Positions 16,858 through 62,505 of a stretch of 64,000 nucleotides of DNA are shown in pieces. Below the pieces are notes generated by a model. The model was given only the letters and a program-made list of their open reading frames with translations, searched no databases and was not told the DNA's origin. Origin of the DNA: Candidatus Azambacteria bacterium. GTDB taxonomy: Bacteria > Patescibacteriota > Minisyncoccia > GWC2-36-17 > WO2-46-25. The position numbers and the translations under genes are program-made. The DNA lies in contig JACRAK010000019.1 of NCBI GenBank assembly GCA_016234725.1, forward strand, positions 5,801 through 69,800, written 5' to 3'. Numbering within the stretch: the first letter of the stretch is position 1; the number at the start of each line of letters is the position of its first letter.

Positions 16858-19800
16858 ATGAGTAATCAGCCTTTAGTAGGCCAGAATGCGAAAAAGAAAT
16901 TATCGCAATTTCTTTCCGCAACGCTTGCCTTCACAACGACTGTTTCATTGTCCGGCTTTGCCCTGATGTTCGCGTTCACCGCGAGCGCACAGGTTGCAAC
17001 GTTGTCAGACGGTGATGTGGTCAAGACCGCGGATAATCCCGATGTATACATCGTGAAGATGCATCCGCATGGTCAGTACGCGGGTTGGAAGCGTCTTATT
17101 CTCAACCCGGAAGTGTTCAATCTTTATGGACACCTCAAGTGGTCAAACATCAAGACGGTAAACCAGGCGACGGTTGATGCGTATCACACGTCTGCATTGG
17201 TACGAGGAGAGAATGATCCTAAGGTATATGTCTTGGCGCCAAACGGCGACGTAGGAACAAAAACCTGGATCACAAACGAAGCAGAGTTCCTCGCGGCAGG
17301 TTATGACTGGAGTCAGATCGCGCAGGTAAACAACAAAGAGCGCGACATGTACACGACTGCTGGTTCACAGCAGCAGGTACCGGCAGCGACAGGAACGGGC
17401 TTGATGGTATCGTTGGCGTCAAACACCGCGGCGGCAGGTTCTATCGTATCTGAGCTTACGGGCTCTGGTACTGGATTGACAGCAGACGGCGCACAGGCAC
17501 AGGTATCAATGCTCACCGCGAATTTCGCTGCGGGTTCAGATGGCGATGTAGCGGTAACGACATTGAAGGTAAAGAGAATGGGCATTTCAGCGGACGCTGA
17601 CATCGCGAATGCGTACTTGTACGATGGCGCGACCCGCGTTGCGGAAATGACCAACATCTCTTCAACCTACATTTCATTCGTGAATGCATCTGGTTTGTTC
17701 ACGGTTTCTCGTGGTACAAGCAAAGCGATCACGGTGAAGATGGATGTGGCAAATGGCACTTCAGCAGGCAAGACAATGGCGTTCGCGATCAACGTGGCAT
17801 CTGATGTTGTGGCTGGCACAGCTACGGTTTCAGGTTCATTCCCGATCGTGGGTAATGGCATGACGACCGCGAATGTTGGCGACCTTGGTAAGATCACGAT
17901 CGCAGACGTTTCGAGCTCAACTACCGTTGATCCGGGTCAGACCGGCTACGAAGTATGGAAGTTCAGCGTTGCGGCAGCGGACCAGAAAGTGAGTGTCTCC
18001 CATATTAAATTGACGAACGTCGGTTCAGTTGCGACAACTGACCTTACGAACATCAAATTGATGGACGGCGCGACACAGCTTGGCGCGACAGCGGCAACCC
18101 TTGCGGTTGACGGCACAGTGACATTCGACCTTTCTTCAAACCCGTTGGTTATCACCGCGGGCCAGACGAAAAACCTGAGCGTGAAAGCAGACATCGTCGG
18201 TGGTACGACTCGCACATTCCGCTTCTCTGTACAGAGATCAGCGGATATCGTAGCGATGGACACCAACTACGGTGTTTACCTTAAGCCAAACCAGACCGAC
18301 TCATTCTTGGTTATCCAACCGGCAGCAGCGACAACGATCAATTCAGGAACATTGACGATTTCAATTGATCCTGCATCGCCGACAGGCAATGTGGCGGCTG
18401 GTTACACCGACCAGGAATTGGCGCGGTTCGCTTTCAAAGCGTCCGGCGAGGCAGTGAAGGTTTCATCCCTCACCGCAACTTCAACCACGACTGGCACAGG
18501 AGGTTTGAACAACGCGAAGTTGTACTTGGATGGTACGCAGGTTGGCGCGACCGCTGACATTGCAACCACTCCGAACACGACATTCACTTTCGGCAATTCA
18601 TTCATCATTCCTGCGGGCGCGACCAAGACCTTGGTCATCAAAGCAGAGGTGAAGACAGCTGCAGGTGTTGCGTACAATGCGGGCGAAACTATTCAGGCGA
18701 AATTGGTTGCGGGTTCATTGAACGCGCAGGGCCAAACCTCAATGACTTCGATCAGTACGTCAGCGGCAAACGGCAACACCTTGACGGTGCAGACCGGCTT
18801 GTTGACGACATCAGCAAACACTGGATTGGCAAATGCAACTACTGCGTTGCCGACTGGTGTTAAGGGCTCAACAAACGTGAAGATTGCATCATTCGTGATC
18901 ACCGCAGGCTCGGGTGAAGGCGCTGATGTAAGCCAGATCGTAGTCAAAAACGGTGCGACAGAAGTGGCGCTTGGCCGCGACTTCCAGAACTTGACATTGA
19001 AGAGCGGTTCAAGCCAGATCGGCACGACCGTTGGTACATTGTCAACAACTGCAGCTAATACCTACACGTTCAATCCGTCTCCTGCGATCAGCATCAACGC
19101 TGGCCAGCAGTACGTAGTTGATGTGTACGCAGATGTGTTAAGCAGCGCGTCAAACGCGTATGCGGTGGGCACCGGTGTTGTGCACACGCCGGTTATTCTT
19201 GACAGCGTGACCGCAACTAGCAAATCAACCAATAGCGACGCAAGCGACGCGACCGACCGGAACGGTCAGAGCGTGTTCATTGCGCTCGCAGGTTCGTTGA
19301 CGGTAGCGGCGGCGTCCGACATGCCGATCGCACAGAACCGCGCAATGGGCCAGACAGGCCAGACCTTGGCAACCTTCAAGTTGACCACAGGCACTCCTGA
19401 AGCGGTGAACATCTCAAGCATCACGGTAACTGACCTGTTGTCGGCGACCGCGACTGCGGCGACCGGTTCGGTAACGAATCTTTCGTTGTGGAATTCTGCA
19501 GGCGTACAGGTTGGCTCAACGGTTGCTTCTATGAGCAGCTCGGCAGTCGGCTTGAACGTGCTCGCGACCTTCAATGGTCTTACGCTGAACGTTGCAAAAG
19601 ATAAGTCAGAAGTGTTGACCTTGAAAGGCGACATGAACACCTATCCGAACGCAGTGTCAGGTAGCGCGCACATGTTCAAAGTGCAGGGCAATGGCGATGT
19701 AACGGCAGTTGGCGCGACGTCAGGCCAGACCATCGCAATGACCGGCGCGGCGATCTCGGGTAATAACCAGAGAGTGTATCGCGCAGAGCTCACCGTCGCA

Positions 19801-20322
19801 AGCGCGATGTCGAACTTCTCGGGTGGTGCAAGCACCGATCAGAACATTGGTAAATACAGATTTACCAACACGTCTCCGGGCAACTACTCCATCACGGTGT
19901 CAGATATTGACCTTGGTTTGAGTACGTCCAAAGCGGCAGCTGCATTTACCGCGACGCGGTATGTCACATTGAAGAGGGATTCGGTAAGTGGCGCGACGGT
20001 TGCAAAGACGCAACTTCGTCCGGGTGTGTTGTACACCGCTTCCGCGCTTCACTTCTCTGACATTACGAGCTGGACAGTGACCGCGGGCAATGTGGGTGAG
20101 CAGATATTCACGCCGTTCACCATTGACGCCTCAAACGGCACCGGTTATGTAGATATTTATGTCTTGGCTGACACGACTGATACAGGCGCGTCAACAATAA
20201 CAATATCTAATAGCCTCGGTTCCGGAAACAATGTTGTCACATGGGGTGATGGCGTATCCGCAAGCACAAGCGTCACATCGGTAGACGGCATGCCGGCCAT
20301 CGGTGCGACGGTTACCTACTAG
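16858..20322 (+). CDS. giant secreted Ser/Thr/Ala/Gly-rich repeat surface protein (putative S-layer or adhesin-like)
   Basis: Signal peptide (…FAFTASA|QVA), no Cys, and repeated beta-rich units of about 100 aa sharing LxDGxTQLGAT…AGQTKxLxVKADI. 1154 aa. Confidence 0.8.
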   Translation: MSNQPLVGQNAKKKLSQFLSATLAFTTTVSLSGFALMFAFTASAQVATLSDGDVVKTADNPDVYIVKMHPHGQYAGWKRLILNPEVFNLYGHLKWSNIKTVNQATVDAYHTSALVRGENDPKVYVLAPNGDVGTKTWITNEAEFLAAGYDWSQIAQVNNKERDMYTTAGSQQQVPAATGTGLMVSLASNTAAAGSIVSELTGSGTGLTADGAQAQVSMLTANFAAGSDGDVAVTTLKVKRMGISADADIANAYLYDGATRVAEMTNISSTYISFVNASGLFTVSRGTSKAITVKMDVANGTSAGKTMAFAINVASDVVAGTATVSGSFPIVGNGMTTANVGDLGKITIADVSSSTTVDPGQTGYEVWKFSVAAADQKVSVSHIKLTNVGSVATTDLTNIKLMDGATQLGATAATLAVDGTVTFDLSSNPLVITAGQTKNLSVKADIVGGTTRTFRFSVQRSADIVAMDTNYGVYLKPNQTDSFLVIQPAAATTINSGTLTISIDPASPTGNVAAGYTDQELARFAFKASGEAVKVSSLTATSTTTGTGGLNNAKLYLDGTQVGATADIATTPNTTFTFGNSFIIPAGATKTLVIKAEVKTAAGVAYNAGETIQAKLVAGSLNAQGQTSMTSISTSAANGNTLTVQTGLLTTSANTGLANATTALPTGVKGSTNVKIASFVITAGSGEGADVSQIVVKNGATEVALGRDFQNLTLKSGSSQIGTTVGTLSTTAANTYTFNPSPAISINAGQQYVVDVYADVLSSASNAYAVGTGVVHTPVILDSVTATSKSTNSDASDATDRNGQSVFIALAGSLTVAAASDMPIAQNRAMGQTGQTLATFKLTTGTPEAVNISSITVTDLLSATATAATGSVTNLSLWNSAGVQVGSTVASMSSSAVGLNVLATFNGLTLNVAKDKSEVLTLKGDMNTYPNAVSGSAHMFKVQGNGDVTAVGATSGQTIAMTGAAISGNNQRVYRAELTVASAMSNFSGGASTDQNIGKYRFTNTSPGNYSITVSDIDLGLSTSKAAAAFTATRYVTLKRDSVSGATVAKTQLRPGVLYTASALHFSDITSWTVTAGNVGEQIFTPFTIDASNGTGYVDIYVLADTTDTGASTITISNSLGSGNNVVTWGDGVSASTSVTSVDGMPAIGATVTY

Positions 20323-47360: not shown

Positions 47361-47396
47361 AAAAACCACCGTGTCAGACGCGGTGGTTTTGTTTTT
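47361..47396 (+). terminator. intrinsic terminator (aaaaaccaccgtgtcagacgcggtggttttgttttt)
   Basis: Hairpin plus U-tract after cspA. Confidence 0.7.
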
Positions 47397-47488: not shown

Positions 47489-47920
47489 ATGGGCTTCCAT
47501 TATAAAAATTTCATAGCAGCGGTAATGGTGTGCATTGCGGCGTTCGGCAGCTTTTTTTCGTTCGTGTATTCTGCGGAACAAAAGAAAAGCGCGGCAAAGA
47601 AAGAGGATGTGATCGTAGCTGAACCGGAAAAGCAGTACGACAAAGAGGAGGTAACGCGCATACATGAAGCGATCGTTGCCGGGAGAAAAAAATTGCTCGT
47701 CGATGAAAAGAAACGTGCCGCCGCGGCAAAGCAAAACACACCGGTCGCGTATGCGCAGGGCGCAATAACCCCGCCGCTTCCCGCGGTTGCGCCGGCCGCG
47801 TTACCGTCGGTGAGCGTTGTTACCATTCCTCCGTTGCCTGTGGCGCCCACTCTCGCACCGATTGTGACTGCACCCACGCGGACCGCGAAGGCAACACAGC
47901 CGCGCACTACGGTCTCATAA
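47489..47920 (+). CDS. hypothetical secreted Pro/Ala-rich protein
   Basis: Signal peptide and a low-complexity P/A/V tail. Confidence 0.4.
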   Translation: MGFHYKNFIAAVMVCIAAFGSFFSFVYSAEQKKSAAKKEDVIVAEPEKQYDKEEVTRIHEAIVAGRKKLLVDEKKRAAAAKQNTPVAYAQGAITPPLPAVAPAALPSVSVVTIPPLPVAPTLAPIVTAPTRTAKATQPRTTVS

Positions 47921-47928
47921 TAAAAAAT

Positions 47929-48465
47929 ATGAAAAAAATAATGTTTCTTTTGATGGCGGTAAGCATGATTTTTTTGCAGGGGATCATATCGCTTCCGTTT
48001 CAAACCAGCACCGTTCAAGCGAAAGAAGCAAAAAAATACTACGAAGAGGAAGAAGATGATGATGCATGGGAGCGGCAGGCGAAGGAACAGTATGCGCCAT
48101 CTTTTGAAGAACAGAGCGCAGAGGATGCGGCGCTTCTTGAGCGCCAGCAAGCGCTGGAACAACAGCGCCAACAGCAGCAGATGATTGACCAGCAAGCGTT
48201 ATTCGAACAGCAGCTTATCGCTCAACGCGCGGCAATAGAAGCGCGTCAGAAACAGCTTCAGGAACAGCAGGCGCTTCTTGCGGCGCAGACAGGCACGGAA
48301 CAGGCGGGCGCCGCCCTTGCGTATTTTTCAGATGCCGACCACGATGGCATTGATGATGCGAATGACCCGCACCCGGGCGAGCACGAAATGATATACGCGA
48401 TAAAAGATGATAATAGAAACGGCATCAGCGATGAACTCGAATACATCTACGACGCGGGATACTGA
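47929..48465 (+). CDS. hypothetical secreted Gln-rich coiled-coil protein with C-terminal Asp-rich Ca-binding-like motif
   Basis: Signal peptide, a Q/E-rich coil, and DADHDGIDDANDPHPGE (thrombospondin-type-3-like). Confidence 0.4.
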   Translation: MKKIMFLLMAVSMIFLQGIISLPFQTSTVQAKEAKKYYEEEEDDDAWERQAKEQYAPSFEEQSAEDAALLERQQALEQQRQQQQMIDQQALFEQQLIAQRAAIEARQKQLQEQQALLAAQTGTEQAGAALAYFSDADHDGIDDANDPHPGEHEMIYAIKDDNRNGISDELEYIYDAGY

Positions 48466-48499
48466 TCGGCTCGCCATTATTGAAAAGAAATTCCGCGCA

Positions 48500-49444
48500 A
48501 TGGGTACGGATGTTATTGTTGCTATCGTAAGCGCCGATGCGTGCGCCGCGCACGATGACGCGGACGATGCGGAGCGTGCGGTCGTGGATTTTGAAAAGCG
48601 GTTCAGCAGGTTTCTTCCCGCAAGCGAGCTATGCTCGCTGAATAAAAGCGGGGGCAAGGTGTGCCGCCCGAGCGCAGACATGATCGTTATGCTTGCGGCC
48701 GCGCAGCGCTGGCACGAGGATACCGGCGGCGTGTTTGACCCTTCGGTGTGCGAAGCGCTCGAAGAGCTCGGATATGACAAAAGCATTGATTTTGAGCATG
48801 GGTCGGTGCGCGAAGAGACAGATCAGGTTTTTGATGCGGATGCGCATCGACGAAGTTTTCAAACATGCCCGCGGTTTGCCGATATGCGCATCGTAATAGA
48901 AGAGGGAACGGTTGCGGTCCCGCGGGGGATGAAGCTTGATCTTGGCGGCATAGGAAAAGGGTATATCGTGGACGCGATGGCACAGCTCCTTCGAAAAAAA
49001 TACCGTGATTTTTGGATATCGGCGGGGGGAGATATGTTTCTTTCCGGGTACAATAGTGAAAACAAGCCGTGGGAGATCATGGTGCAAAACCCGCTCGACC
49101 TGAATAATGATATCGGGCGTATCACGATGGGCGACAAAAAAGAAATGGCGGTGGCGACATCGGGCGTGATGAAGCGCAAAGGAGTGAAAGGAGGGTTTGC
49201 GTGGCATCATATCATCGATCCGCGGACAGGCCTTCCCGCATCAAATACTATTGCCGCAGTAACGGTACTAGCGCCTACCGTGACCGCCGCTGATGTGTGC
49301 GCAAAGGTCGTGCTGATACTCGGAGAGAAAGAAGGCATTGATTTTATAGACCGCCGCGCCGATTGCGCATGTCTTACGGTTGATATGGAGGGGAAGATCT
49401 CATATTCCCGTACAATGAAAGAATATTTTGTGCCGGTTTCATGA
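48500..49444 (+). CDS. apbE: FAD:protein FMN transferase (ApbE family)
   Basis: FRAMGTDV start and LDLGGIGKGY motif. Start chosen at MGTD; the list ORF from 48407 overlaps the upstream gene. Confidence 0.8.
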   Translation: MGTDVIVAIVSADACAAHDDADDAERAVVDFEKRFSRFLPASELCSLNKSGGKVCRPSADMIVMLAAAQRWHEDTGGVFDPSVCEALEELGYDKSIDFEHGSVREETDQVFDADAHRRSFQTCPRFADMRIVIEEGTVAVPRGMKLDLGGIGKGYIVDAMAQLLRKKYRDFWISAGGDMFLSGYNSENKPWEIMVQNPLDLNNDIGRITMGDKKEMAVATSGVMKRKGVKGGFAWHHIIDPRTGLPASNTIAAVTVLAPTVTAADVCAKVVLILGEKEGIDFIDRRADCACLTVDMEGKISYSRTMKEYFVPVS

Positions 49445-51000
49445 AGAAAATTGTTTTTGTAAGTATCGCGTTGTTTCTTTTATCCGCATCATATGCGGCG
49501 CCTTTTTTTGTATTCGCGCAGGCAGGTAATGGCGCCGTGGAATACGGCATATCGGAACCAAAAGACAGCGACCTTGATGGACTTACGGATCAGGGAGAGA
49601 TACAGGTATTTAAAACAGATCCTCTAGACCAAGATACTGATGGTGACGGATATTTGGATGGCGAAGAGGTGATGCTCGGGAGCGACCCGCTTGATCGGCA
49701 CGATCCGGAACGCTTTTTGATGTCGCGTACGGCAGAAGGGGATGTGGTAAAAGACGCGACCGCCTTGCCGTGGTATGTCGCCCGCGCGGCGGGGCTTGAA
49801 GCGTATCTGTTGTTGTTTGTGATCACCGTACTCGGTATCGGCCTATATACGCAGTTTATCTTCCGTGTCATGCGTTCGGAAAATGCGCTGATGTTCCATA
49901 AATATCTTTCCGTGCTCACGGGAGCGGTGCTTGCCGTACATGTGGGCGCGCTGTTGTTCGATGCGTTCATGAATTTCAGCGTGTATGAAGTGCTTGTGCC
50001 TTTTTTGTCGCATTATCAAAATATATATGCGAGTATGGGCATTTTTGCGATGTATCTTTTCATCATTATCGTCGCAACTTCGCTGGTTATCCGCACTCTC
50101 TACCCGCGGTTTTGGCGACTGACGCATTATCTCGTGTATCCGCTGTTTGTGCTGTCGTTCGCGCACGGCGTGCTTATCGGTACCGATACGTCCTTTGCGC
50201 TGATGCAGGCGATGTATTGGGCGACCGGCATCATCGGCGTTGCGCTCATCGCGTACCGTATCGCATATCCGTATTTGCAGAAAAAATATCCCTGCCGCAT
50301 CGTGCATATCGGCATGATGACAAAAGATATCGTGGCAGTAGAGCTCGCGAGAGAAGACGGAAATGAATTTCCGGCATTCGTCCCGGGCCAATATGCCGCG
50401 CTCACGTATCGCGACGCGCGCGGGACAATGACGCACAAACATTATTTTTCATTTGCGAGTTCTCCGGCAAACAGAAGGACGGTGCGTTTCGGCATCAAGG
50501 TGATGGGCAATTTCACGCAAGGGCTTGTCCGTATGAAAACGGGGGATAAGATAGTATTGCAAGGGCCGTACGGTGATTTTATATTCAAAGAAAAGCAGAT
50601 GCATCGCGCGGTGTTTATCGCGGGCGGTATCGGTATCACGCCGTTTATGAGCGCGCTTTGCTATGCGCGCGACACAGGCATCGCAAACGACCTTACGCTT
50701 ATATTCAACAACCGTTCGCGTGAAGCGGCTCCATTTGTTGAGGAGATCGGCTCCATCGCGCGACAGAACCCTAAGAGCAAATGTTTTTTCTCGGTGAGCG
50801 ACGACCCGGAAGCGCCCGAAGGATTTTTGAAAGGAAGAGTTGATGAGAAAATGATACGCGCGTGCGTGAACAATGATCTTCACGATACCTATTTTCTCGT
50901 GTGCGGCTCGCCTCCGTTCATGGATGCGGTGATACGCACTCTGCGCCGATGCGGCGTGCGCCAGCAGTATATTCGCAAAGAATACTTTACCGCGTATTAA
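49441..51000 (+). CDS. ferric-reductase/NOX-like flavocytochrome (bis-heme TM domain plus FAD/NAD(P)-binding) with N-terminal Asp-rich TSP3-like repeats
   Basis: Signal peptide; DSDLDGLTD…DQDTDGDGYLDGEE; paired His in TM helices; FNR-like PGQYAALTY and GGIGITP. ATGA overlap with apbE. Confidence 0.75.
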   Translation: MKKIVFVSIALFLLSASYAAPFFVFAQAGNGAVEYGISEPKDSDLDGLTDQGEIQVFKTDPLDQDTDGDGYLDGEEVMLGSDPLDRHDPERFLMSRTAEGDVVKDATALPWYVARAAGLEAYLLLFVITVLGIGLYTQFIFRVMRSENALMFHKYLSVLTGAVLAVHVGALLFDAFMNFSVYEVLVPFLSHYQNIYASMGIFAMYLFIIIVATSLVIRTLYPRFWRLTHYLVYPLFVLSFAHGVLIGTDTSFALMQAMYWATGIIGVALIAYRIAYPYLQKKYPCRIVHIGMMTKDIVAVELAREDGNEFPAFVPGQYAALTYRDARGTMTHKHYFSFASSPANRRTVRFGIKVMGNFTQGLVRMKTGDKIVLQGPYGDFIFKEKQMHRAVFIAGGIGITPFMSALCYARDTGIANDLTLIFNNRSREAAPFVEEIGSIARQNPKSKCFFSVSDDPEAPEGFLKGRVDEKMIRACVNNDLHDTYFLVCGSPPFMDAVIRTLRRCGVRQQYIRKEYFTAY

Positions 51001-51086: not shown

Positions 51087-52220
51087 ATGGACATCGTCAC
51101 TGACCATAAAAAAGATCCTGTTGGGCCCGAATACATTATCAAAGCGCACAATCCGAAACTTGGTGTTTGGGGGTTTTTGGTCATCGACAATACGGTGCTT
51201 GGTCCCGGGAAAGGCGGTATCCGCATGACCCCAACTGTCACCGAAGAGGAAGTATTCCGGCTCGCGCGCGCCATGACGTTCAAAAATGCCATTGCGGGCA
51301 TTCCGTTTGGCGGGGCGAAATCGGGCATAGTATTTGATCCGAAATCGGCGGACAAAAAAACAAAAAAAGAAATCATACAGTGGTTTGCGCGCGCGATGCG
51401 CCCTTTTATTCCTTCTGCATATATCGCGGGGCCTGATGTTAATACGACGGAGACCGAGATGAAGTGGTTTGTGGAAGCGATCCGAAATAAAAAAGGAGCG
51501 ACAGGAAAACCGAAATCGATCGGTGGTCTTCCCCACGAACTTGGCAGTACCGGCTTTGGTGTTGCGTGCGCGGCGAAGATCGCGCTTGAATACGCGGATA
51601 TTCCAGTGCGCGGCGCAACGGTTGCTATTGAAGGATATGGCAATGTCGGTACATTTGCGCACAAGTTTCTTGAAGAGATGGGCGCGAGGATCGTTGCGGT
51701 CTCCGATTCAAAAGGGACGGCATATCACATCGACGGGCTTTCTCATACGGCGCTTATGCGAGTGAAAAAAGAAAACGGATCAGTTGTGTATTATCCGGAG
51801 GCGCGACAGCTGGGCAAAGAAGAAATTTTTTCGCTCGATATAGATGTTCTTATTCCCGCGGCTCTTCCCGACGTTATCCATGAAAAAAATAGTGATGCCG
51901 TGCGCGCAAAAGTGATCGTAGAGGGCGCGAATATCCCGATGCAGCACGATGTTGAAGACGCGCTACATGCGCGAGGTGTACTCATCGTGCCGGACATCGT
52001 TGCGAATGCAGGCGGTGTCATTTCTTCATATGCGGAACATAAAGGATATACTGAAAAACGCATGTTTACGCTTGTTGAGGAAAAGATCAGTGCGAGTACG
52101 CGGGAGATAATGGGGATAATGAAAAAAACAGGGAAAAATCCGCGCGCGATCGCAATGGAGATTGCACATAGACGAATAACGAAAAACGCCCGGGGCCATC
52201 GGATGGCATCGACACAGTAA
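51087..52220 (+). CDS. gdh: glutamate dehydrogenase (Glu/Leu/Phe/Val dehydrogenase family)
   Basis: Catalytic GGxK motif (LGPGKGGIRM); Rossmann GYGNVG. Start chosen at MDIVTD. Confidence 0.85.
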   Translation: MDIVTDHKKDPVGPEYIIKAHNPKLGVWGFLVIDNTVLGPGKGGIRMTPTVTEEEVFRLARAMTFKNAIAGIPFGGAKSGIVFDPKSADKKTKKEIIQWFARAMRPFIPSAYIAGPDVNTTETEMKWFVEAIRNKKGATGKPKSIGGLPHELGSTGFGVACAAKIALEYADIPVRGATVAIEGYGNVGTFAHKFLEEMGARIVAVSDSKGTAYHIDGLSHTALMRVKKENGSVVYYPEARQLGKEEIFSLDIDVLIPAALPDVIHEKNSDAVRAKVIVEGANIPMQHDVEDALHARGVLIVPDIVANAGGVISSYAEHKGYTEKRMFTLVEEKISASTREIMGIMKKTGKNPRAIAMEIAHRRITKNARGHRMASTQ

Positions 52221-58730: not shown

Positions 58731-61073
58731 ATGGATAGCAGACTCAATTTCCCGACCGTCTTTGTGATATTCGGCGCTACGGGCGATCTTGCGCGGCGGA
58801 AGATATTTCCCGCGCTTTTTGAATTAAAAAAGAAAGGAGCGCTCCCTGACCGGTTCGCGGTCGTGGCGTTCAGCCGGCGTGAATGGGATGATGCCATGTT
58901 TCGGGACTATGTGAAAGGAATGCTCGGCGCAGAAAATACCGATAGCGAGGTCGCCGCTTTTTTGAAGCTCATTCATTTTCAGCATGGTACATTCGAGGAT
59001 AAAGGATCGTACGACGATCTTCATGGAGCGCTTGCGCGCATCGATGAAGAATGGAAATTATGCACCAATAAGCTTTTTTATCTGGCGACCCCGCCGGAAA
59101 ATTACAAAAACATCCTTGCGCATCTGCATCGTTCGGGGTTGACCGCGCCGTGCTCGCCCGAAGAGGGGTTCACGCGCGTACTTGTGGAGAAGCCGTTCGG
59201 CAAGGACCTTGCCACCGCGGAAGCGCTTGATGCGCTTTTGGGGAAACTGTTCAAAGAAGAGCAGATCTATCGCATCGACCATTATCTGGGAAAGGAGATG
59301 CTGCAAAACATCCTTCATTTTCGTTTTTCGAACAACCTTTTGGAAGACGTATGGAGCAATAAATACATCAAACGGGTAGAGGTCAGGCTGTGGGAGCAAA
59401 AGGGGGTGGAAACGCGCGGCGCGTTCTATGACGGGCTTGGCGCGTTGCGTGATGTCGGACAGAACCATGTATTACAAATGGCGGCATTGGTGGCGATGGA
59501 GCAGCCCGCCGCGTTCACCGCGGAAGCGGTGCGGGTAAACCGCGCGGCGATCCTTGAAACAGTGAAAATATTCACTACGGAGGAGATCAAACGGCACACC
59601 TTCCGGGCGCAATATCTCGGGTATCGAGATATTGCGGGCGTGAAGAGCGATTCTACGACCGAGACGTATTTTAAAACGCAGCTTTTTTTCGATCACCCGC
59701 GGTGGCAGGGAGTCGAGTTTACGCTCGAAAGCGGGAAGCGGATGAAGGAACAAAGGAAAGAGGTCATTGTGTATTTTCGCCATCCACGGCCGTGCTTGTG
59801 CCCCGACGGGGGGCATGTGCAGAATACGGTCCATTTCACGCTCGAGCCGAAAGAAGAGATACGGATGAACATTTGGGCGAAAAAGCCGGGGCTCACCAAC
59901 GAGCTTGCCGAGCGTGCGCTTACGTTCACGTATCGCGAAGCGTCGGAGCGCGTGCAGTACATAGAAGAATATGAACGGTTGCTTGTCGACGCTATTGCGG
60001 GCGACCAAATGCTCTTTTTGAGCACAAATGAAGTGAGAGCGATGTGGAAATTCATCGACCCCATCGTGCATGCGTGGGACAAAAAAGCGGTCGTGCTCGC
60101 CTCATATGCTCCCGATACATCCGAAGCGGCTACGCAGGCGCAATACGCGGAGCGTGTCGCGATGATGCCGAAAGCGATCGGCATGGTCGGCTTAGGGAAG
60201 ATGGGCGGAGGCATCGCCATGCAGCTTTTGGAAAAAGGGTGGGAGGTCGCGGGAACGACGCGGGATGCCGAGAAAGCGGAGAAATTCAAAAAAAACGGAA
60301 TGAAGATAGCGGCGGACTATGCCGACATGGTGCGCCGGCTGCCGAGCCCTAGAGTGGTGTGGGTGATGGTACCGGCGGGAGAGGCGACCGAAGAAACGAT
60401 CTTTGGCAAAGAAGGGTTGGCAAAGCATCTTGAGAAAGGGGACATTCTTATCGATGGCGGGAACAGTTTTTATAAGGACTCTATCCGCCGCGCGAAACAG
60501 CTGAAGAAAAAGGGCATTCGCTTTGTCGATGTGGGGGTGTCAGGCGGCCCCGGGGGCGCGCGGCGCGGCGCATGCATCATGGTGGGGGGAGAGCGTGCGT
60601 CGTACGAATATCTCCACCAGCTCTTTGCGGACTTCACGGTTTCAGGCGGCATCGGATTCTTTGACGGACACGGTGCCGGCCATTTCGTGAAGATGGTGCA
60701 CAACGGCATCGAGTATGGGATGATGCAGGCGATCGCGGAAGGGTTTCTTATTCTCAAAAAATCGAAGCTGAAGCTCGACCTTGCGCGCGTCGCGGATATT
60801 TATAATAGCGGAAGCGTTATCGAATCAAAGCTGATCAACTGGCTCACGGAGGCGTTTGACGTATACGGGCAGGACCTGAAAACGATCTCGGGAAGCGTGA
60901 AGCGGACGGGCGAGGGCGATTGGACGGTCAAGACCGCAAAAGAATTAAAGGTGCGGGCAAAAGTGATCGAGGAGTCGGTGAAATTCAGGAAGCTTTCGGC
61001 AAAAAATCCCGATTACGCGGGAAAGGTGCTTTCCGCGCTTCGCAACCGCTTCGGCGGGCATGCGATACAGTAG
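58731..61073 (+). CDS. zwf: bifunctional fusion: glucose-6-phosphate dehydrogenase (N-terminal, about 480 aa) plus short-form 6-phosphogluconate dehydrogenase (C-terminal, about 300 aa)
   Basis: Zwf motifs GATGDLARRK and RIDHYLGKE. The C-terminal half has the GLGKMGGGIAMQL Rossmann fold and 6PGDH-like (YqeC-type) core. One continuous 780-aa ORF. Confidence 0.8.
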   Translation: MDSRLNFPTVFVIFGATGDLARRKIFPALFELKKKGALPDRFAVVAFSRREWDDAMFRDYVKGMLGAENTDSEVAAFLKLIHFQHGTFEDKGSYDDLHGALARIDEEWKLCTNKLFYLATPPENYKNILAHLHRSGLTAPCSPEEGFTRVLVEKPFGKDLATAEALDALLGKLFKEEQIYRIDHYLGKEMLQNILHFRFSNNLLEDVWSNKYIKRVEVRLWEQKGVETRGAFYDGLGALRDVGQNHVLQMAALVAMEQPAAFTAEAVRVNRAAILETVKIFTTEEIKRHTFRAQYLGYRDIAGVKSDSTTETYFKTQLFFDHPRWQGVEFTLESGKRMKEQRKEVIVYFRHPRPCLCPDGGHVQNTVHFTLEPKEEIRMNIWAKKPGLTNELAERALTFTYREASERVQYIEEYERLLVDAIAGDQMLFLSTNEVRAMWKFIDPIVHAWDKKAVVLASYAPDTSEAATQAQYAERVAMMPKAIGMVGLGKMGGGIAMQLLEKGWEVAGTTRDAEKAEKFKKNGMKIAADYADMVRRLPSPRVVWVMVPAGEATEETIFGKEGLAKHLEKGDILIDGGNSFYKDSIRRAKQLKKKGIRFVDVGVSGGPGGARRGACIMVGGERASYEYLHQLFADFTVSGGIGFFDGHGAGHFVKMVHNGIEYGMMQAIAEGFLILKKSKLKLDLARVADIYNSGSVIESKLINWLTEAFDVYGQDLKTISGSVKRTGEGDWTVKTAKELKVRAKVIEESVKFRKLSAKNPDYAGKVLSALRNRFGGHAIQ

Positions 61074-61107: not shown

Positions 61108-62505
61108 GTGCATTCATTAATAAGCAATAACACTATGGTGAAAAATTTCGTTTTTGTGGCGTGTGCGGTGATGATCGCCGTCATGGCACAGGTGTCATTT
61201 GTTGCGGCGCAAACCGATAGCGATGGCATCGCACGCGCTCCGCAAGCGTTTTCATCTGCGGATTTCGGGGTAGCGAGGATCGGTATTTTGCCGACGAGCA
61301 ATTTATATTTCTTGAAAGAATTACAGCGGAACATCCAGCGGGTGTTCGCATTCAGCGCAGCAAACAAGGCAAAGCTTGAAATGAAGATCGCGAATGAAAA
61401 AGCGGCGGAGATCGCAAAGATGCAGGAAATGGGTGTGACAGAAAGAGATGTCATGGACCGCGCGCTTGAAGGATATGAGAAGGTGCAGGAACGGCTCGGC
61501 AAAGCGCTTACGAAGGTAAAAGAAGGCAAAGAAAGCAGAGCGCGTGATGAGGTCTTGATGCGCGCGACAGAGCAGAGCGAAAAACACGGAGAATTTTTGC
61601 AAGGGCTTGCCCGAACGGTCGGCGACAAAGGACGGGCGCGAGAGATCATTATGAAAGCGGAAGAGGCGGTGCGCGGTACGGCGGAAGCGTCGCTTGAGAA
61701 AGCGACCGATGAGATCGATCGCGCGCAGGAATTTATCGCGGAGGTGGAAATAATGTTCGAAGAAGAAGCGGTGTCGCAGGAAGGAGCGACGACAACCGCC
61801 CCGGTCCTCGGTCAGCCGCAACAGCTTCTTGCGCAAGCACAGGAGCGTTTAGACAAGGCGACGGCCGCGTTTGATGCAGAAAAATACGGTGAAGCATACG
61901 GCCAGGCGCGCGCGGCGATAGCGATAGCATCTCATGCGAAACGGATATTGGATATGAACGCAGAGGCATCATCGGCGGAGGGAGACGAGGAGAACACGAA
62001 TGAGGACGGAGGCGCCGCGGCGGACGAGAGCGGAAGAAACGAAGGATGTCTGTGCGCACAGGTGTATAGCCCGGTGTGCGGTGTGGACGGCAAAACATAT
62101 GGCAATGCGTGCGAAGCAAACTGCCAGAAGAAGGCGGTAGCGCGTGCGGGGGAGTGTACGGAAGGCGAAACGAAGAGATCGGGATCATCAGCGCAAGAAA
62201 ATGACAAAGCATCATCTCAGAATATCATTACGGAAACACGCATGGTTTCGATCGAAGGGTTTGCGTTCTCGCCCAAAGAGATAACCATCAAAAAGGGGAC
62301 AAAGGTAACGTGGATGAACAAAGATGCCGCAGCGCATCAGATCGCGTCCAACCCGCATCCGTTGCACACGTCATTGCCCGAGCTTGCGTCGCCGGTTCTC
62401 GCGCGCGGAGAATCGTACAGTTTTACGTTCCAAAAAACAGGAACGATCGGGTATCATTGCCATCTGCATCCATCGATGCAGGGGAAGATAACCGTGATCG
62501 AGTAG
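61108..62505 (+). CDS. secreted protein with helical N-terminal region, Kazal-type domain and C-terminal cupredoxin (type-1 copper) domain
   Basis: Signal peptide; Kazal CLCAQVYSPVCGVDGKTYGNACEANC…C; cupredoxin ligands H…C-H-x-H-x-x-M (GYHCHLHPSMQG). Confidence 0.7.
   Translation: MHSLISNNTMVKNFVFVACAVMIAVMAQVSFVAAQTDSDGIARAPQAFSSADFGVARIGILPTSNLYFLKELQRNIQRVFAFSAANKAKLEMKIANEKAAEIAKMQEMGVTERDVMDRALEGYEKVQERLGKALTKVKEGKESRARDEVLMRATEQSEKHGEFLQGLARTVGDKGRAREIIMKAEEAVRGTAEASLEKATDEIDRAQEFIAEVEIMFEEEAVSQEGATTTAPVLGQPQQLLAQAQERLDKATAAFDAEKYGEAYGQARAAIAIASHAKRILDMNAEASSAEGDEENTNEDGGAAADESGRNEGCLCAQVYSPVCGVDGKTYGNACEANCQKKAVARAGECTEGETKRSGSSAQENDKASSQNIITETRMVSIEGFAFSPKEITIKKGTKVTWMNKDAAAHQIASNPHPLHTSLPELASPVLARGESYSFTFQKTGTIGYHCHLHPSMQGKITVIE

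What the first reader, a model, noticed from the sequence alone, without database searches (positions are those of the whole stretch)
47489..51000. ApbE flavin transferase coupled to a NOX/ferric-reductase-like flavocytochrome and secreted Asp-rich (TSP3-like) proteins
apbE (48500-49444) overlaps the start of a 519-aa protein by ATGA. That protein has a bis-heme ferric-reductase TM domain, an FNR-like FAD/NAD(P) module, and an extracytosolic N-terminus carrying DxDxDG calcium-binding-like repeats. The same Asp-rich motif occurs in the C-terminal tail of the preceding Gln-rich protein. ApbE-linked gene clusters are associated with extracytosolic flavinylated redox proteins. This pairing suggests a transmembrane electron-transfer system, using extracellular electron transfer or periplasmic reductases, in an organism that otherwise appears fermentative (phosphoketolase/acetate kinase).
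Basis: partly seen in the sequence, partly recalled or inferred. Interest (0 to 1): 0.55.

Follow-up and report, generated by a model that had tools for sequence, protein, structure and literature searches.

The report
NOX-type electron exporter with tethered-flavin tail
A tiny-genome groundwater bacterium carries a four-gene operon for a membrane enzyme that moves electrons from NAD(P)H out of the cell, and the linked flavin-attaching enzyme most likely loads its flavin onto the last residue of a floppy membrane-anchored tail, a kind of target not described before.

Summary
Window 47489-51000 is one tight operon in a Candidatus Azambacteria (Patescibacteria/CPR) genome. It encodes:
- p143, a membrane-anchored Pro/Ala-rich tail protein;
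- p178, a secreted acidic protein with calcium-loop motifs;
- ApbE;
- a 519-aa NOX-type flavocytochrome with six TM helices, four invariant heme histidines, an FAD/NAD(P)H module, and TSP3 calcium loops between TM1 and TM2.

ApbE here has no signal peptide, and neither do its 120 closest relatives. The cluster holds no FMN-binding domain and no canonical D-x-x-[ST]-G-A-[ST] site.

The new result concerns the gene just upstream of apbE. In 32 of 43 related apbE+ferric-reductase loci it encodes a membrane-anchored tail ending in [ST]-x-x-Ser-COOH (consensus P-R/x-T-R/S-V-S; here PRTTVS). Among 62 NOX-like loci without apbE, only three short chance ORFs show this ending. The spacing matches the canonical flavinylation motif.

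My best reading is: NAD(P)H, then FAD, then two hemes, then an FMN tethered on the tail, then an outside acceptor. Flavinylation of the tail is inferred, not shown. How a cytoplasmic ApbE reaches a tail predicted to lie outside is unresolved. I rate this a new variant of the "MsrQ-like" flavinylation systems.

The parts
47362..47390 (+). Terminator-like hairpin (13-bp stem plus T run) after the upstream cold-shock gene. It marks the 5' boundary of the operon.
   Evidence: GGAG lies 7 nt upstream of the ATG at 47489.
47489..47920 (+). p143: a small membrane-anchored protein with a Lys-rich segment and a Pro/Ala/Val/Thr-rich low-complexity tail. It is the proposed flavinylation substrate (tether).
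   Evidence: Orthologues sit in the same position in L001, L003, L164 and L165. In other CPR lineages the same TM+tail is fused to the C-terminus of the FNR domain.
47507..47575 (+). Single TM helix of p143 (aa 7-29).
   Evidence: Hydropathy score 2.38 over 19 aa; sequence.
47900..47917 (+). C-terminal motif P-R-T-T-V-S followed by the stop codon. Thr(-3) and the terminal Ser(0) have the spacing of the canonical [ST]-G-A-[ST].
   Evidence: The motif is found in 32/43 apbE+FRD loci, against three short chance ORFs in 62 apbE-less NOX-like loci. Ten of 14 independent FNR-TM-tail proteins also carry it.
47929..48465 (+). p178: signal peptide, acidic stretch (EEEEDDD), Gln-rich coiled region, and a C-terminal pair of Ca-binding-type loops.
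   Evidence: NCBI names it a hypothetical protein, MBI5913349.
48331..48441 (+). TSP3-like loop DADHDGIDDAND (48331-48366) and EF-hand-like loop DDNRNGISDELE (48406-48441) of p178.
   Evidence: Alignment A3 has invariant D/N/G positions. The profile hits TSP3 repeats in PDB 5wtl at E 4e-4; EF-hand proteins match only weakly.
48431..49444 (+). ApbE, an FAD:protein FMN transferase without a signal peptide. The ORF opens at 48407 and NCBI's start is 48431.
   Evidence: Pfam ApbE 6e-55. Best PDB match is Listeria FmnB 7esa, 1e-23. GGIGKGY, GGD, ATSG and HHIIDPRTG are conserved. There is no N-terminal hydrophobic segment here or in 120 homologues.
49441..51000 (+). NOX-type flavocytochrome b (519 aa): TM1/signal, TSP3 loop, five further TM helices carrying two heme sites, and a cytoplasmic FAD/NAD(P)H dehydrogenase domain.
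49564..49668 (+). Two Ca-binding-type loops, DSDLDGLTDQGE and DTDGDGYLDGEE (TSP3_bac), in the extracytosolic TM1-TM2 loop.
   Evidence: Pfam TSP3_bac 1e-10. Nearly invariant D/G/T positions. Coordinates.
49756..50277 (+). Ferric-reductase domain core (TM2-TM6, aa 106-279). His153/His167 are encoded at 49897-49941 and His229/His242 at 50125-50166.
   Evidence: Invariant His in alignment A1. AF2 helices. Full-length Foldseek hits to SpNOX, DUOX1 and NOX5.
50284..50997 (+). FNR-like dehydrogenase domain (aa 282-519) with H-Y-F-S (50440-50451, flavin site) and GGIGITP (50623-50643, NAD(P)H site).
   Evidence: pLDDT is about 90.
51087..52220 (+). Glu/Leu/Phe/Val-type dehydrogenase, a context gene and possible NAD(P)H source. 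It also adjoins the module in two related contigs.
   Evidence: Pfam ELFV_dehydrog. The same neighbour is seen in L164 and L165.

Best explanation
The operon encodes an NAD(P)H-driven electron exporter.

Shown by sequence and structure comparison:
- The 519-aa protein is a NOX-type flavocytochrome. A cytoplasmic FNR-like domain (FAD, NAD(P)H) is fused to a six-helix ferric-reductase domain with two bis-His heme b sites. This is the standard route for one-electron transfer from the cytoplasm to the outer face.
- The co-translated ApbE has all the catalytic motifs of FAD:protein FMN transferases but no export signal.

Inferred:
- ApbE's substrate is the C-terminal P-R-T-T-V-S of p143. p143 is a single-pass membrane protein whose long disordered tail is predicted to lie outside the cell.
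- FMN is attached by phosphoester to the terminal Ser (less likely to Thr-3). This makes a flavin on a flexible leash that takes electrons from the exposed outer heme and passes them to an external acceptor (O2, Fe(III), a cupredoxin or a partner-cell component; not resolved).
- Because ApbE is cytoplasmic, the modification probably happens on the unfolded C-terminus before or during export of the tail. That would also remove the need to export FAD.
- p178 and the TSP3 loop of the flavocytochrome are a co-inherited pair of Ca2+-binding modules on the outer face. They probably form a docking or stabilising structure around the outer heme.
- Physiologically the system would re-oxidise the NAD(P)H made by the neighbouring G6PD-6PGD, GDH and phosphoketolase pathway, letting acetyl-phosphate go to acetate plus ATP.
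For: Operon structure:
- It is tight: an 8-nt gap, a gene overlap, and the ATGA overlap. A strong terminator lies just upstream.

NOX membership:
- Pfam domains.
- SpNOX is the best PDB sequence hit, 4e-18, and a full-length Foldseek hit, 6e-20, alongside DUOX1 and NOX5.
- Four invariant His with 14/13 spacing and six predicted TM helices.

ApbE:
- Pfam 187 bits, FmnB 1e-23 with HHIIDPRTG aligned, and motifs invariant across seven lineages.
- No signal peptide in any of 120 closest homologues or in the related loci.

Tail motif:
- 22 of the 27 ORFs (among 8508) that end in P-x-[ST]-x-[VMTI]-S lie directly upstream of this apbE clade.
- With the relaxed pattern, 32 of 43 apbE+FRD loci have a TM protein ending in [ST]-x-x-S. 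Only three short spurious ORFs do so in 62 apbE-less NOX-like loci.
- Ten of 14 FNR-TM-tail proteins from the independent protein database end the same way.
- Some tails carry several internal copies: P-[IV]-T-S-V-S four times in L004 and P-V-T-S-A-S in L161.
- The Thr(-3)...Ser(0) spacing equals the canonical S-G-A-T. Published mutagenesis shows that A-to-V and G-to-A still give about 50% flavinylation and that the Asp is dispensable (PMC12052999).

Fusion and topology evidence:
- In other CPR lineages the tail is fused to the FNR domain while the FRD is separate. This ties the tail to the electron-transfer complex.
- Small tail proteins in L116, L110, L104 and L135 have strongly basic N-termini, which predicts N-in and tail-out.
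- A variant tail end is bracketed by two Cys (C-T-T-S-x-S-G-V-T-T-C), suggesting an extracytosolic disulfide.

Other support:
- p178-like proteins co-occur 11/11 with TSP3-bearing FRDs and 0/45 with TSP3-less ones.
- The SpNOX structure paper states that a protein acceptor may exist for bacterial NOX homologues (PMC11564096).
Against: - No experiment or structure prediction here shows that the tail is flavinylated. The motif lacks the canonical Gly-Ala and Asp.
- ApbE without a signal peptide and a tail predicted to be outside are on opposite sides of the membrane. Pre-export modification of a Sec/YidC substrate by ApbE has no precedent that I know of. The internal repeats in L004 and L161 are harder to modify 'at the last moment' than a C-terminal site.
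- Eleven of 43 loci lack the strict C-terminal pattern, although several of these have internal or near-terminal versions.
- Only 64 kb of the genome was available, so a canonical FMN_bind target elsewhere cannot be excluded. One D-S-V-S-G-A-T occurs in a 1154-aa surface protein 28 kb upstream.
- The TM-domain model has only moderate confidence (pLDDT 55-75).
- The external acceptor is unknown.
Confidence: 0.5

Rival explanations
1. The NOX-type protein and ApbE do work together, but ApbE's substrate is a conventional flavinylation site encoded elsewhere: an FMN_bind-type protein outside the 64-kb window, or the D-S-V-S-G-A-T site in the 1154-aa surface protein. On this view the conserved tail end of p143 has another role, such as a docking ligand for the acidic Ca-binding modules, a processing signal or a glycosylation signal.
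For: - A canonical D-x-x-S-G-A-T occurs at aa 1041-1047 of the product of 16858-20322.
- Basic tail ends (PRTRVS, KPKTKTS, TRTRTS) often accompany acidic partner proteins, which fits an electrostatic docking role.
- Only part of the genome was seen.
Against: - The 1154-aa protein has no FMN_bind or related domain. About 0.1 chance matches to this motif are expected in a window of this size.
- An ApbE without a signal peptide is a poor fit for a folded secreted Ig-like protein.
- The tail motif tracks apbE, not the NOX-like gene. It also occurs in lineages that have no acidic partner, such as the Saccharibacteria-type Y-x-x-P-x-T-S-V-S.
- ApbE is the only enzyme universally adjacent to the tail gene.
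Confidence: 0.17
2. ApbE acts wholly in the cytoplasm. It either flavinylates a cytoplasmic part of the flavocytochrome or FNR protein, or it serves as a flavin-trafficking enzyme or FAD pyrophosphatase that loads or maintains the flavin of the dehydrogenase domain. The outer face works like SpNOX with no flavin.
For: - ApbE has no signal peptide across the whole clade.
- Cytoplasmic ApbEs that modify cytoplasmic fumarate reductases are known (PMC12052999).
- Some ApbE/Ftp proteins hydrolyse FAD (from my own knowledge of T. pallidum Ftp).
- SpNOX binds FAD weakly and has an exposed outer heme that reduces several acceptors directly.
Against: - No conserved [ST]-x-x-[ST] site specific to apbE-linked FNR or FRD proteins was found in cytoplasmic regions. 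The conserved FS-x-AS-SP segment is the general NOX flavin-site motif.
- This explanation leaves unexplained why a tail with a conserved [ST]-x-x-S end is always encoded next to apbE.
- The catalytic His and Asp of transferases are retained.
Confidence: 0.15
3. The same hardware, but dedicated to assimilatory iron reduction. It would be a ferric reductase in the strict sense, with the acidic Ca-loop proteins binding Fe(III)/Fe(II) at the surface, rather than a redox-balancing electron sink.
For: - The FRD superfamily includes the FRE/FRO ferric reductases.
- Some published MsrQ-like and PepSY-like flavinylation clusters sit next to VIT1 iron transporters (PMC8238504).
- Acidic, Asp-rich proteins and D-rich C-termini recur in the modules.
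- A Bifidobacterium apbE mutant is sensitive to ferrous chelators (PMC5449479).
Against: - No iron transporter (VIT1, Feo, FTR1/P19) was seen next to the module in the window or in the loci inspected.
- The conserved neighbours are NAD(P)H-producing dehydrogenases.
- This rival concerns the acceptor only and is compatible with a flavinylated tail.
Confidence: 0.12

Closest known systems
'MsrQ-like' flavinylation-associated gene clusters (Meheust et al. 2021, eLife, PMC8238504)
   Same: apbE sits next to a PF01794 ferric-reductase-domain protein that carries a C-terminal PF00175 NAD-binding domain. The proposed route is NAD(P)H, then hemes, then an extracytosolic covalently bound flavin.
   Different: - Published clusters contain an FMN-binding-domain protein with an [S/T]GA[S/T] site and a secreted or lipidated ApbE, and are mostly actinobacterial.
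- Here ApbE has no signal peptide and there is no FMN_bind domain.
- The candidate acceptor is a domain-less C-terminal [ST]-x-x-Ser on a disordered membrane-anchored tail, and the lineage is CPR. That study found extracytosolic flavinylation 'strikingly underrepresented' in CPR after filtering for signal peptides.
Streptococcus pneumoniae NOX (SpNOX; PDB 8qq7, 8qt6) and eukaryotic NOX5/DUOX
   Same: A six-TM ferric-reductase domain with two bis-His hemes (His spacing 14 and 13) fused to an FAD/NAD(P)H dehydrogenase domain. SpNOX is the best sequence and fold match.
   Different: - Sequence identity is only about 19%.
- A 75-residue TSP3 calcium-loop insert lies between TM1 and TM2.
- The gene is embedded in an operon with ApbE, a tail protein and an acidic Ca-loop protein, whereas SpNOX has no known partner and its physiological acceptor is unknown.
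- In many relatives the FRD and FNR parts are separate genes.
Listeria monocytogenes flavin-based extracellular electron transfer (FmnB/PplA)
   Same: A fermentative monoderm uses an ApbE-family enzyme (FmnB is the best PDB match to this ApbE) to make a surface-tethered flavoprotein that carries electrons from NADH to outside acceptors.
   Different: - Listeria uses Ndh2, a quinone, EetA/B and the lipoprotein PplA with two folded FMN_bind domains.
- FmnB is an extracytosolic lipoprotein supplied with FAD by an ECF exporter.
- None of those parts is present here.
ApbE-associated FMN_red proteins with flavinylation-like motifs on an unstructured C-terminal extension (Huang et al. 2024, mSystems, PMC11334425)
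   Same: The predicted flavinylation site lies on a disordered C-terminal extension rather than inside an FMN_bind fold.
   Different: There the extension folds back onto a conventional flavin-binding domain of the same protein and uses canonical-like motifs. Here the tail is 100-250 residues long, follows a TM helix, and has no flavin-binding domain of its own.
Cytoplasmic ApbE of Klebsiella pneumoniae, and the ApbE domains of trypanosomatid fumarate reductases
   Same: An ApbE without a signal peptide.
   Different: Their substrates are soluble cytoplasmic fumarate reductases with a folded FMN_bind domain and the canonical motif.

Membership tests
ApbE / FAD:protein FMN transferase (PF02424) | Match to the family profile above the curated cut-off | tested here: met
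   187 bits against a cut-off of 25.6. NCBI names the protein FAD:protein FMN transferase.
ApbE / FAD:protein FMN transferase (PF02424) | Conserved FAD/Mg2+/catalytic motifs (GGxGKG, GGD, ATSG, H-x-x-D-P-x-T-G with the catalytic His) | tested here: met
   These are invariant in seven lineages. HHIIDPRTG aligns with YHHILDPKTG of Listeria FmnB, PDB 7esa.
ApbE / FAD:protein FMN transferase (PF02424) | N-terminal signal peptide or lipobox, typical of the extracytosolic ApbEs | tested here: not met
   At most 26 residues, none hydrophobic, precede the A-[ML]-G-[TS] motif in this protein and in 120 homologues.
ApbE / FAD:protein FMN transferase (PF02424) | Transfers FMN from FAD to a Ser/Thr of a target protein | not testable with these tools
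   Needs co-expression and mass spectrometry.
NOX-type members of the ferric-reductase-domain superfamily | Ferric_reduct TM domain with two His pairs in TM3 and TM5, with 13 and 12 intervening residues | tested here: met
   Pfam PF01794 scores 34.8 bits against a cut-off of 28. His153/167 and His229/242 are invariant in 16 sequences. The spacing equals that of SpNOX H69/H83 and H129/H142.
NOX-type members of the ferric-reductase-domain superfamily | C-terminal dehydrogenase domain with a flavin site (H-P-F-T-like) and an NAD(P)H site (G-G-x-G-x-x-P) | tested here: met
   FAD_binding_6 and NAD_binding_1 match. H334-Y-F-S337 and G395-GIGITP401 are conserved and align to the SpNOX HPFS and GGIGITPF segments.
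NOX-type members of the ferric-reductase-domain superfamily | Six TM helices with N- and C-termini in the cytoplasm; overall NOX fold | tested here: inconclusive
   AF2 gives six helices, and Foldseek finds SpNOX, DUOX1 and NOX5 over about 430 columns. However, TM-domain pLDDT is only 55-75, and helix 1 could be a cleaved signal peptide (AQA/G).
NOX-type members of the ferric-reductase-domain superfamily | Reduces O2 to superoxide/H2O2 as its physiological reaction | not testable with these tools
   This is unsettled even for SpNOX (PMC11564096).
'MsrQ-like' flavinylation-associated system (Meheust 2021, operational definition) | PF01794 gene within five genes of apbE | tested here: met
   The genes are adjacent and overlap by ATGA.
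'MsrQ-like' flavinylation-associated system (Meheust 2021, operational definition) | At least one of ApbE, FMN_bind, DUF2271 or DUF3570 carries a signal peptide or lipidation site | tested here: not met
   ApbE has none, and the other three domains are absent.
'MsrQ-like' flavinylation-associated system (Meheust 2021, operational definition) | FMN-binding-domain protein with an [S/T]GA[S/T] site in the cluster | tested here: not met
   p143, p178 and the 519-aa protein give no Pfam or NCBIfam hit of this kind, and the cluster holds no such motif.
Canonical ApbE substrate motif D-x-x-[ST]-G-A-[ST] | Motif present in a cluster protein | tested here: not met
   It is absent from the four cluster proteins. 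A related pattern, P-x-T-x-V-S-COOH with the same Thr/Ser spacing, is present and conserved.
Bacterial TSP3 repeat (PF18884) | Profile match above cut-off; D-x-D-x-D-G-x-x-D loops | tested here: met
   The 519-aa protein scores 41.6 bits against a cut-off of 25. p178 itself is below Pfam detection, but its family profile matches TSP3 repeats of PDB 5wtl at E 4e-4.
Listeria-type flavin-based EET locus | Ndh2, EetA/EetB, DmkA/B, PplA (FMN_bind x2), FmnA and a lipoprotein FmnB | tested here: not met
   Only an ApbE homologue is present. The neighbouring genes are unrelated.

The most novel reading that the evidence does not exclude
CPR bacteria, and some other lineages seen in the metagenome loci, use a previously unrecognised class of ApbE substrate. 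It is a domain-less [ST]-x-x-Ser site at or near the C-terminus of a long disordered, membrane-anchored tail. A signal-peptide-less ApbE flavinylates it in the cytoplasm, and the tail is then exported. The result is a 'flavin on a leash' that serves as the dedicated extracytosolic electron acceptor of a bacterial NOX homologue. If so, two things follow. The reported scarcity of extracytosolic flavinylation in CPR would be an artefact of filtering for signal peptides and known domains. And bacterial NOX homologues would have a physiological protein acceptor.
Probability: 0.35. Interest if true: 0.8.

Novelty: new variant of a known kind. Interest (0 to 1): 0.62.

Why it matters
- It proposes a concrete, easily testable new substrate class for the flavin transferase ApbE: a bare C-terminal peptide instead of a folded FMN-binding domain. 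It also suggests an answer to what the remaining 'orphan' apbE genes modify (PMC8238504).
- It suggests that CPR/Patescibacteria, usually described as purely fermentative and lacking electron-transport chains, widely carry a compact NAD(P)H-to-outside electron conduit. Earlier surveys missed it because the ApbE has no signal peptide and gene callers often skip the tail gene.
- It bears on an open question raised by the SpNOX structures, namely whether bacterial NOX homologues have a protein acceptor rather than O2 (PMC11564096).
- A seven-residue or shorter C-terminal flavinylation tag with its own cytoplasmic transferase could be a useful protein-engineering tool.

Tried and rejected
- Canonical flavinylation motif or FMN_bind domain in p143, p178 or the 519-aa protein: none found.
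- The D-S-V-S-G-A-T site in the 1154-aa surface protein (16858-20322): it has no flavin-related domain. I judge it probably a chance match and keep it only as a minor rival.
- A hidden signal peptide for ApbE through an upstream start: impossible, because the ORFs are already maximal.
- A frameshift or read-through fusion of ApbE to the secreted p178: rejected. The relative frames differ between loci (same frame in L002/L003, +1 in L010, a 59-nt overlap in the window, a 3-nt gap in L165), and many modules lack p178 altogether.
- Pfam on tail proteins and acidic partners from nine loci: nothing significant.
- A cupredoxin or multicopper oxidase as the conserved acceptor: found only in the window (61108-62505) and next to the module in L164, not in the other loci.
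- Iron transporters next to the module: none seen.
- Literature searches combining ApbE with Saccharibacteria, Patescibacteria, CPR, NOX or disordered C-terminal sites found no description of this arrangement.

Full report
**What is there**

Between a strong terminator-like hairpin (47362-47390) and 51000 lie four closely packed + strand genes:
- p143 (47489-47920)
- p178 (47929-48465)
- apbE (ORF from 48407; NCBI start 48431; ends 49444)
- a 519-aa gene (49441-51000)

p143 and p178 are separated by 8 nt. p178 and apbE overlap. apbE and the last gene overlap by ATGA. The 519-aa protein is identical to MBI5913351 of a Candidatus Azambacteria MAG, and p178 to MBI5913349, a 'hypothetical protein'. 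The organism is therefore a member of the Patescibacteria/CPR.

**The flavocytochrome**

- Pfam finds Ferric_reduct, FAD_binding_6, NAD_binding_1 and TSP3_bac, all above their cut-offs.
- The best solved relative by sequence is Streptococcus pneumoniae NOX, at 4e-18.
- An AF2 model (mean pLDDT 70; about 90 in the dehydrogenase domain and 55-75 in the membrane domain) has six long helices: 2-27, 106-137, 146-172, 195-220, 222-246 and 252-279.
- Over its full length the model matches SpNOX, DUOX1 and NOX5.
- In 16 homologues His153, His167, His229 and His242 are invariant. Their spacings of 14 and 13 are those of the SpNOX heme ligands.
- The flavin-site HYFS and the GGIGITP nucleotide loop are also conserved.
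- The two D-x-D-x-D-G loops (aa 42-76) lie between helix 1 and helix 2. That places them on the outer face, whether or not helix 1 is cleaved as a signal peptide.

**ApbE**

- The Pfam match is strong, at 187 bits.
- The closest solved protein is Listeria FmnB, at 1e-23. The catalytic H-x-x-D-P-x-T-G, GGxGKG, GGD and ATSG segments are all kept.
- The N-terminus has no hydrophobic stretch. The ORF cannot be extended upstream.
- All 120 closest homologues in the protein database (298-340 aa, many named from Azam-, Falkow-, Wolfe- and Paceibacteria) have at most 26 non-hydrophobic residues before the conserved A-[ML]-G-[TS].
- The same holds for the related genomic and metagenomic loci.

This ApbE clade is therefore predicted to be cytoplasmic. 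No FMN_bind, DUF2271 or DUF3570 domain and no D-x-x-[ST]-G-A-[ST] site occurs in the four cluster proteins. By the operational definition of the published 'MsrQ-like' flavinylation systems, which requires a signal peptide on ApbE or on a known target domain, this cluster would have been filtered out. That study reported extracytosolic flavinylation as strikingly under-represented in CPR and noted that orphan apbE genes imply unidentified substrates.

**Comparative anatomy**

I fetched 80 loci around NOX-like genes from species-representative genomes. I fetched another 80 around relatives of this ApbE from metagenomes, plus five through exact protein look-ups.

- apbE lies next to a ferric-reductase-domain gene in more than 45 of these loci.
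- The parts are shuffled between lineages. In Azambacteria the FNR domain is fused to the FRD and the tail is a separate small protein (window, L001, L164, L165).
- In many other CPR lineages the order is FNR-TM-tail, then sometimes an acidic protein, then apbE, then the FRD (L002, L010, L004, L078, L081, L083, L086 and others).
- The FNR-to-tail fusion is gene-fusion evidence that the tail protein belongs to the same complex.

**The tail motif**

- p143 ends in P-R-T-T-V-S. Its counterparts end in PRTTVS, PRTRVS, PKTKVS, P[IVMT]TSVS, PVSSVS, PTTQVS, PRTRTS, PRTRMS or KPKTKTS. In more distant, GC-rich loci the endings are TRTRTS, TRTRAS, RSRGS and ASTAS.
- Of 8508 ORFs in all fetched DNA, 27 end in P-x-[ST]-x-[VMTI]-S. 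Twenty-two of these (23 counting L117, whose apbE is only a fragment) lie immediately upstream of this apbE clade.
- With the relaxed rule (a TM protein ending in [ST]-x-x-S within 1.5 kb upstream), 32 of 43 informative apbE+FRD loci qualify.
- Among 62 NOX-like loci without apbE, only three short spurious ORFs qualify, even in a wider search window.
- Position-specific counts in the 32 loci are: Ser at 0 in 32/32; Thr or Ser at -3 in 32/32; Val or Thr at -1 in 24/32; Pro at -5 in 21/32.
- Independently, 10 of 14 FNR-TM-tail proteins returned by the protein-database search end in Y-x-x-P-x-[TS]-x-x-S. Four of the rest end in a Cys-bracketed C-x-T-[ST]-x-S-G…C loop with the same T-x-x-S core.
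- Some tails carry several internal copies: four P-[IV]-T-S-V-S in L004/L082, and P-V-T-S-A-S repeats in L161.
- Gene callers miss these genes. In L164 the tail gene was not called, and the exact p143 sequence is not in the protein collection.

**Why I read the motif as a flavinylation site**

This is inference. The grounds are:
- ApbE is the only enzyme that always accompanies the motif.
- The motif tracks apbE, not the NOX-like gene.
- The hydroxyl residues at -3 and 0 have the spacing of [S/T]-G-A-[S/T], in which the last residue receives FMN.
- Variants form a graded series towards the canonical sequence: S-T-A-S, T-S-A-S, T-S-V-S, T-T-V-S.
- Published mutagenesis of a canonical site shows that Ala-to-Val and Gly-to-Ala retain about half of flavinylation, that the upstream Asp is nearly dispensable, and that seven residues suffice.
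- A disordered C-terminal extension bearing flavinylation-like motifs has been predicted for ApbE-associated FMN_red proteins, so a site outside an FMN_bind fold is not without precedent.

**Where the tail is**

- In the fusion proteins the FNR domain must be cytoplasmic, and a 19-23-residue hydrophobic helix follows it. The tail should therefore be outside.
- Small tail proteins in L116, L110, L104 and L135 have strongly basic N-termini and neutral or acidic sequence after the helix, predicting N-in and tail-out.
- The tails are Pro/Thr/Ser/Ala-rich, like wall-spanning linkers.
- One variant end is bracketed by two cysteines.

An outside tail and a cytoplasmic ApbE are in conflict. The simplest reconciliation is modification of the unfolded C-terminal end in the cytoplasm, where FAD is available, before that end is exported. 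This is speculative. It fits a C-terminal site better than the internal repeats.

**The calcium-loop partner**

- p178-like proteins have a signal peptide, an acidic run and a conserved D-x-D-x-D-G-I-x-D-x-x-D…D-x-N-x-N-G-I-x-D-x-L-E pair.
- They occur in 11 of 11 loci whose FRD carries the TSP3 insert and in 0 of 45 apbE+FRD loci whose FRD lacks it.
- The profile matches TSP3 repeats of an OmpA-family structure at E 4e-4, and matches EF-hand loops only weakly.
- I infer a Ca2+-dependent outer-face assembly of p178 with the TSP3 loop. It is an accessory, because many modules work without both.

**Physiology**

This too is inference.
- Directly downstream lies a Glu/Leu/Phe/Val-type dehydrogenase, also adjacent in L164 and L165.
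- Within 10 kb lie phosphoketolase, acetate kinase and a fused G6PD-6PGD.
- That pathway yields excess NAD(P)H. An outward electron sink would allow acetyl-phosphate to be used for ATP.
- The acceptor is unknown. O2, Fe(III) and a secreted cupredoxin protein (61108-62505) are candidates, but the cupredoxin link is not general and no iron transporter is adjacent.
- The SpNOX authors themselves state that O2 may not be the physiological acceptor of bacterial NOX homologues and that a protein acceptor may exist.

**Verdict**

ApbE is not extracytosolic by prediction, and there is no FMN-binding-domain target.
- I consider the system a new variant of the ApbE/MsrQ-like kind, widespread in CPR, with a candidate new substrate class.
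- Confidence by claim:
  - about 0.85 that this is a NOX-type electron-transfer module functionally tied to ApbE;
  - about 0.55 that the tail end is the ApbE substrate;
  - about 0.35 for cytoplasmic modification before export.

Noticed in passing
window 19978-19998 (within ORF 16858-20322, + strand): A perfect canonical ApbE motif, D-S-V-S-G-A-T, lies at aa 1041-1047 of a 1154-aa secreted protein. That protein gives only weak Ig-like Pfam hints and no FMN_bind domain. About 0.1 chance matches are expected in a window of this size.
   Followed up: partly
L136 6976-7698 (FRD), aa 30-36: One FRD of the same module family carries a canonical D-A-A-S-G-A-S in its TM1-TM2 outer loop, the position where the window protein has its TSP3 insert. 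The neighbouring ApbE lacks a signal peptide. The motif is not conserved in its nearest relative, L122.
   Followed up: partly
window 58731-61073: A single 780-aa ORF fuses glucose-6-phosphate dehydrogenase (G6PD_N/C) to 6-phosphogluconate dehydrogenase (NAD_binding_2/6PGD). It combines both NADPH-producing steps in one protein and lies next to phosphoketolase and acetate kinase.
   Followed up: no
window 61108-62505; L164 396-1811 (- strand): The window encodes a secreted 465-aa protein with DUF5667, a Kazal-type domain and a C-terminal plastocyanin/azurin-type copper domain. In L164 a multicopper oxidase or nitrite-reductase-like protein with a cupredoxin domain lies right next to the ApbE/NOX module. 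Either could be an external electron acceptor, but the link is not seen in other loci.
   Followed up: partly
window 51087-52220; L164 5618-6727; L165 1-1119: A Glu/Leu/Phe/Val-type dehydrogenase adjoins the module in three of four Azambacteria-like contigs. It is replaced by a small membrane protein in L001.
   Followed up: partly
L164 1921-2439; window 47489-47920: Gene callers tend to miss the tail-protein gene. In L164 a spurious 60-aa ORF on the opposite strand was called instead. The exact p143 sequence is absent from the 15-billion-protein collection. This may be why the family has gone unnoticed.
   Followed up: yes
L004 8022-9587, L161 4960-6510, L084 3735-5528, L136 7623-8372, L104 5326-5691, L110 1071-1418: Several module proteins end in runs of Asp/Glu: YYSDDDGGYDD, SNDDDDD, DNDRDDD, EEEEYEDD, GSDDD and EHEHEDD. 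These acidic C-termini often occur in loci whose tail ends are basic (…RTRTS, …RSRGS), which hints at electrostatic pairing or metal binding.
   Followed up: no
L122 7747-8355 and L136 7623-8372: A further conserved secreted protein follows the FRD in some loci. The shared segment is …GE(K/P)ITF(S/T)(I/V)(K/T)N…NC P(S/R)EPL(A/S)VYR…, and the C-terminus is acidic. It has no Pfam match.
   Followed up: no
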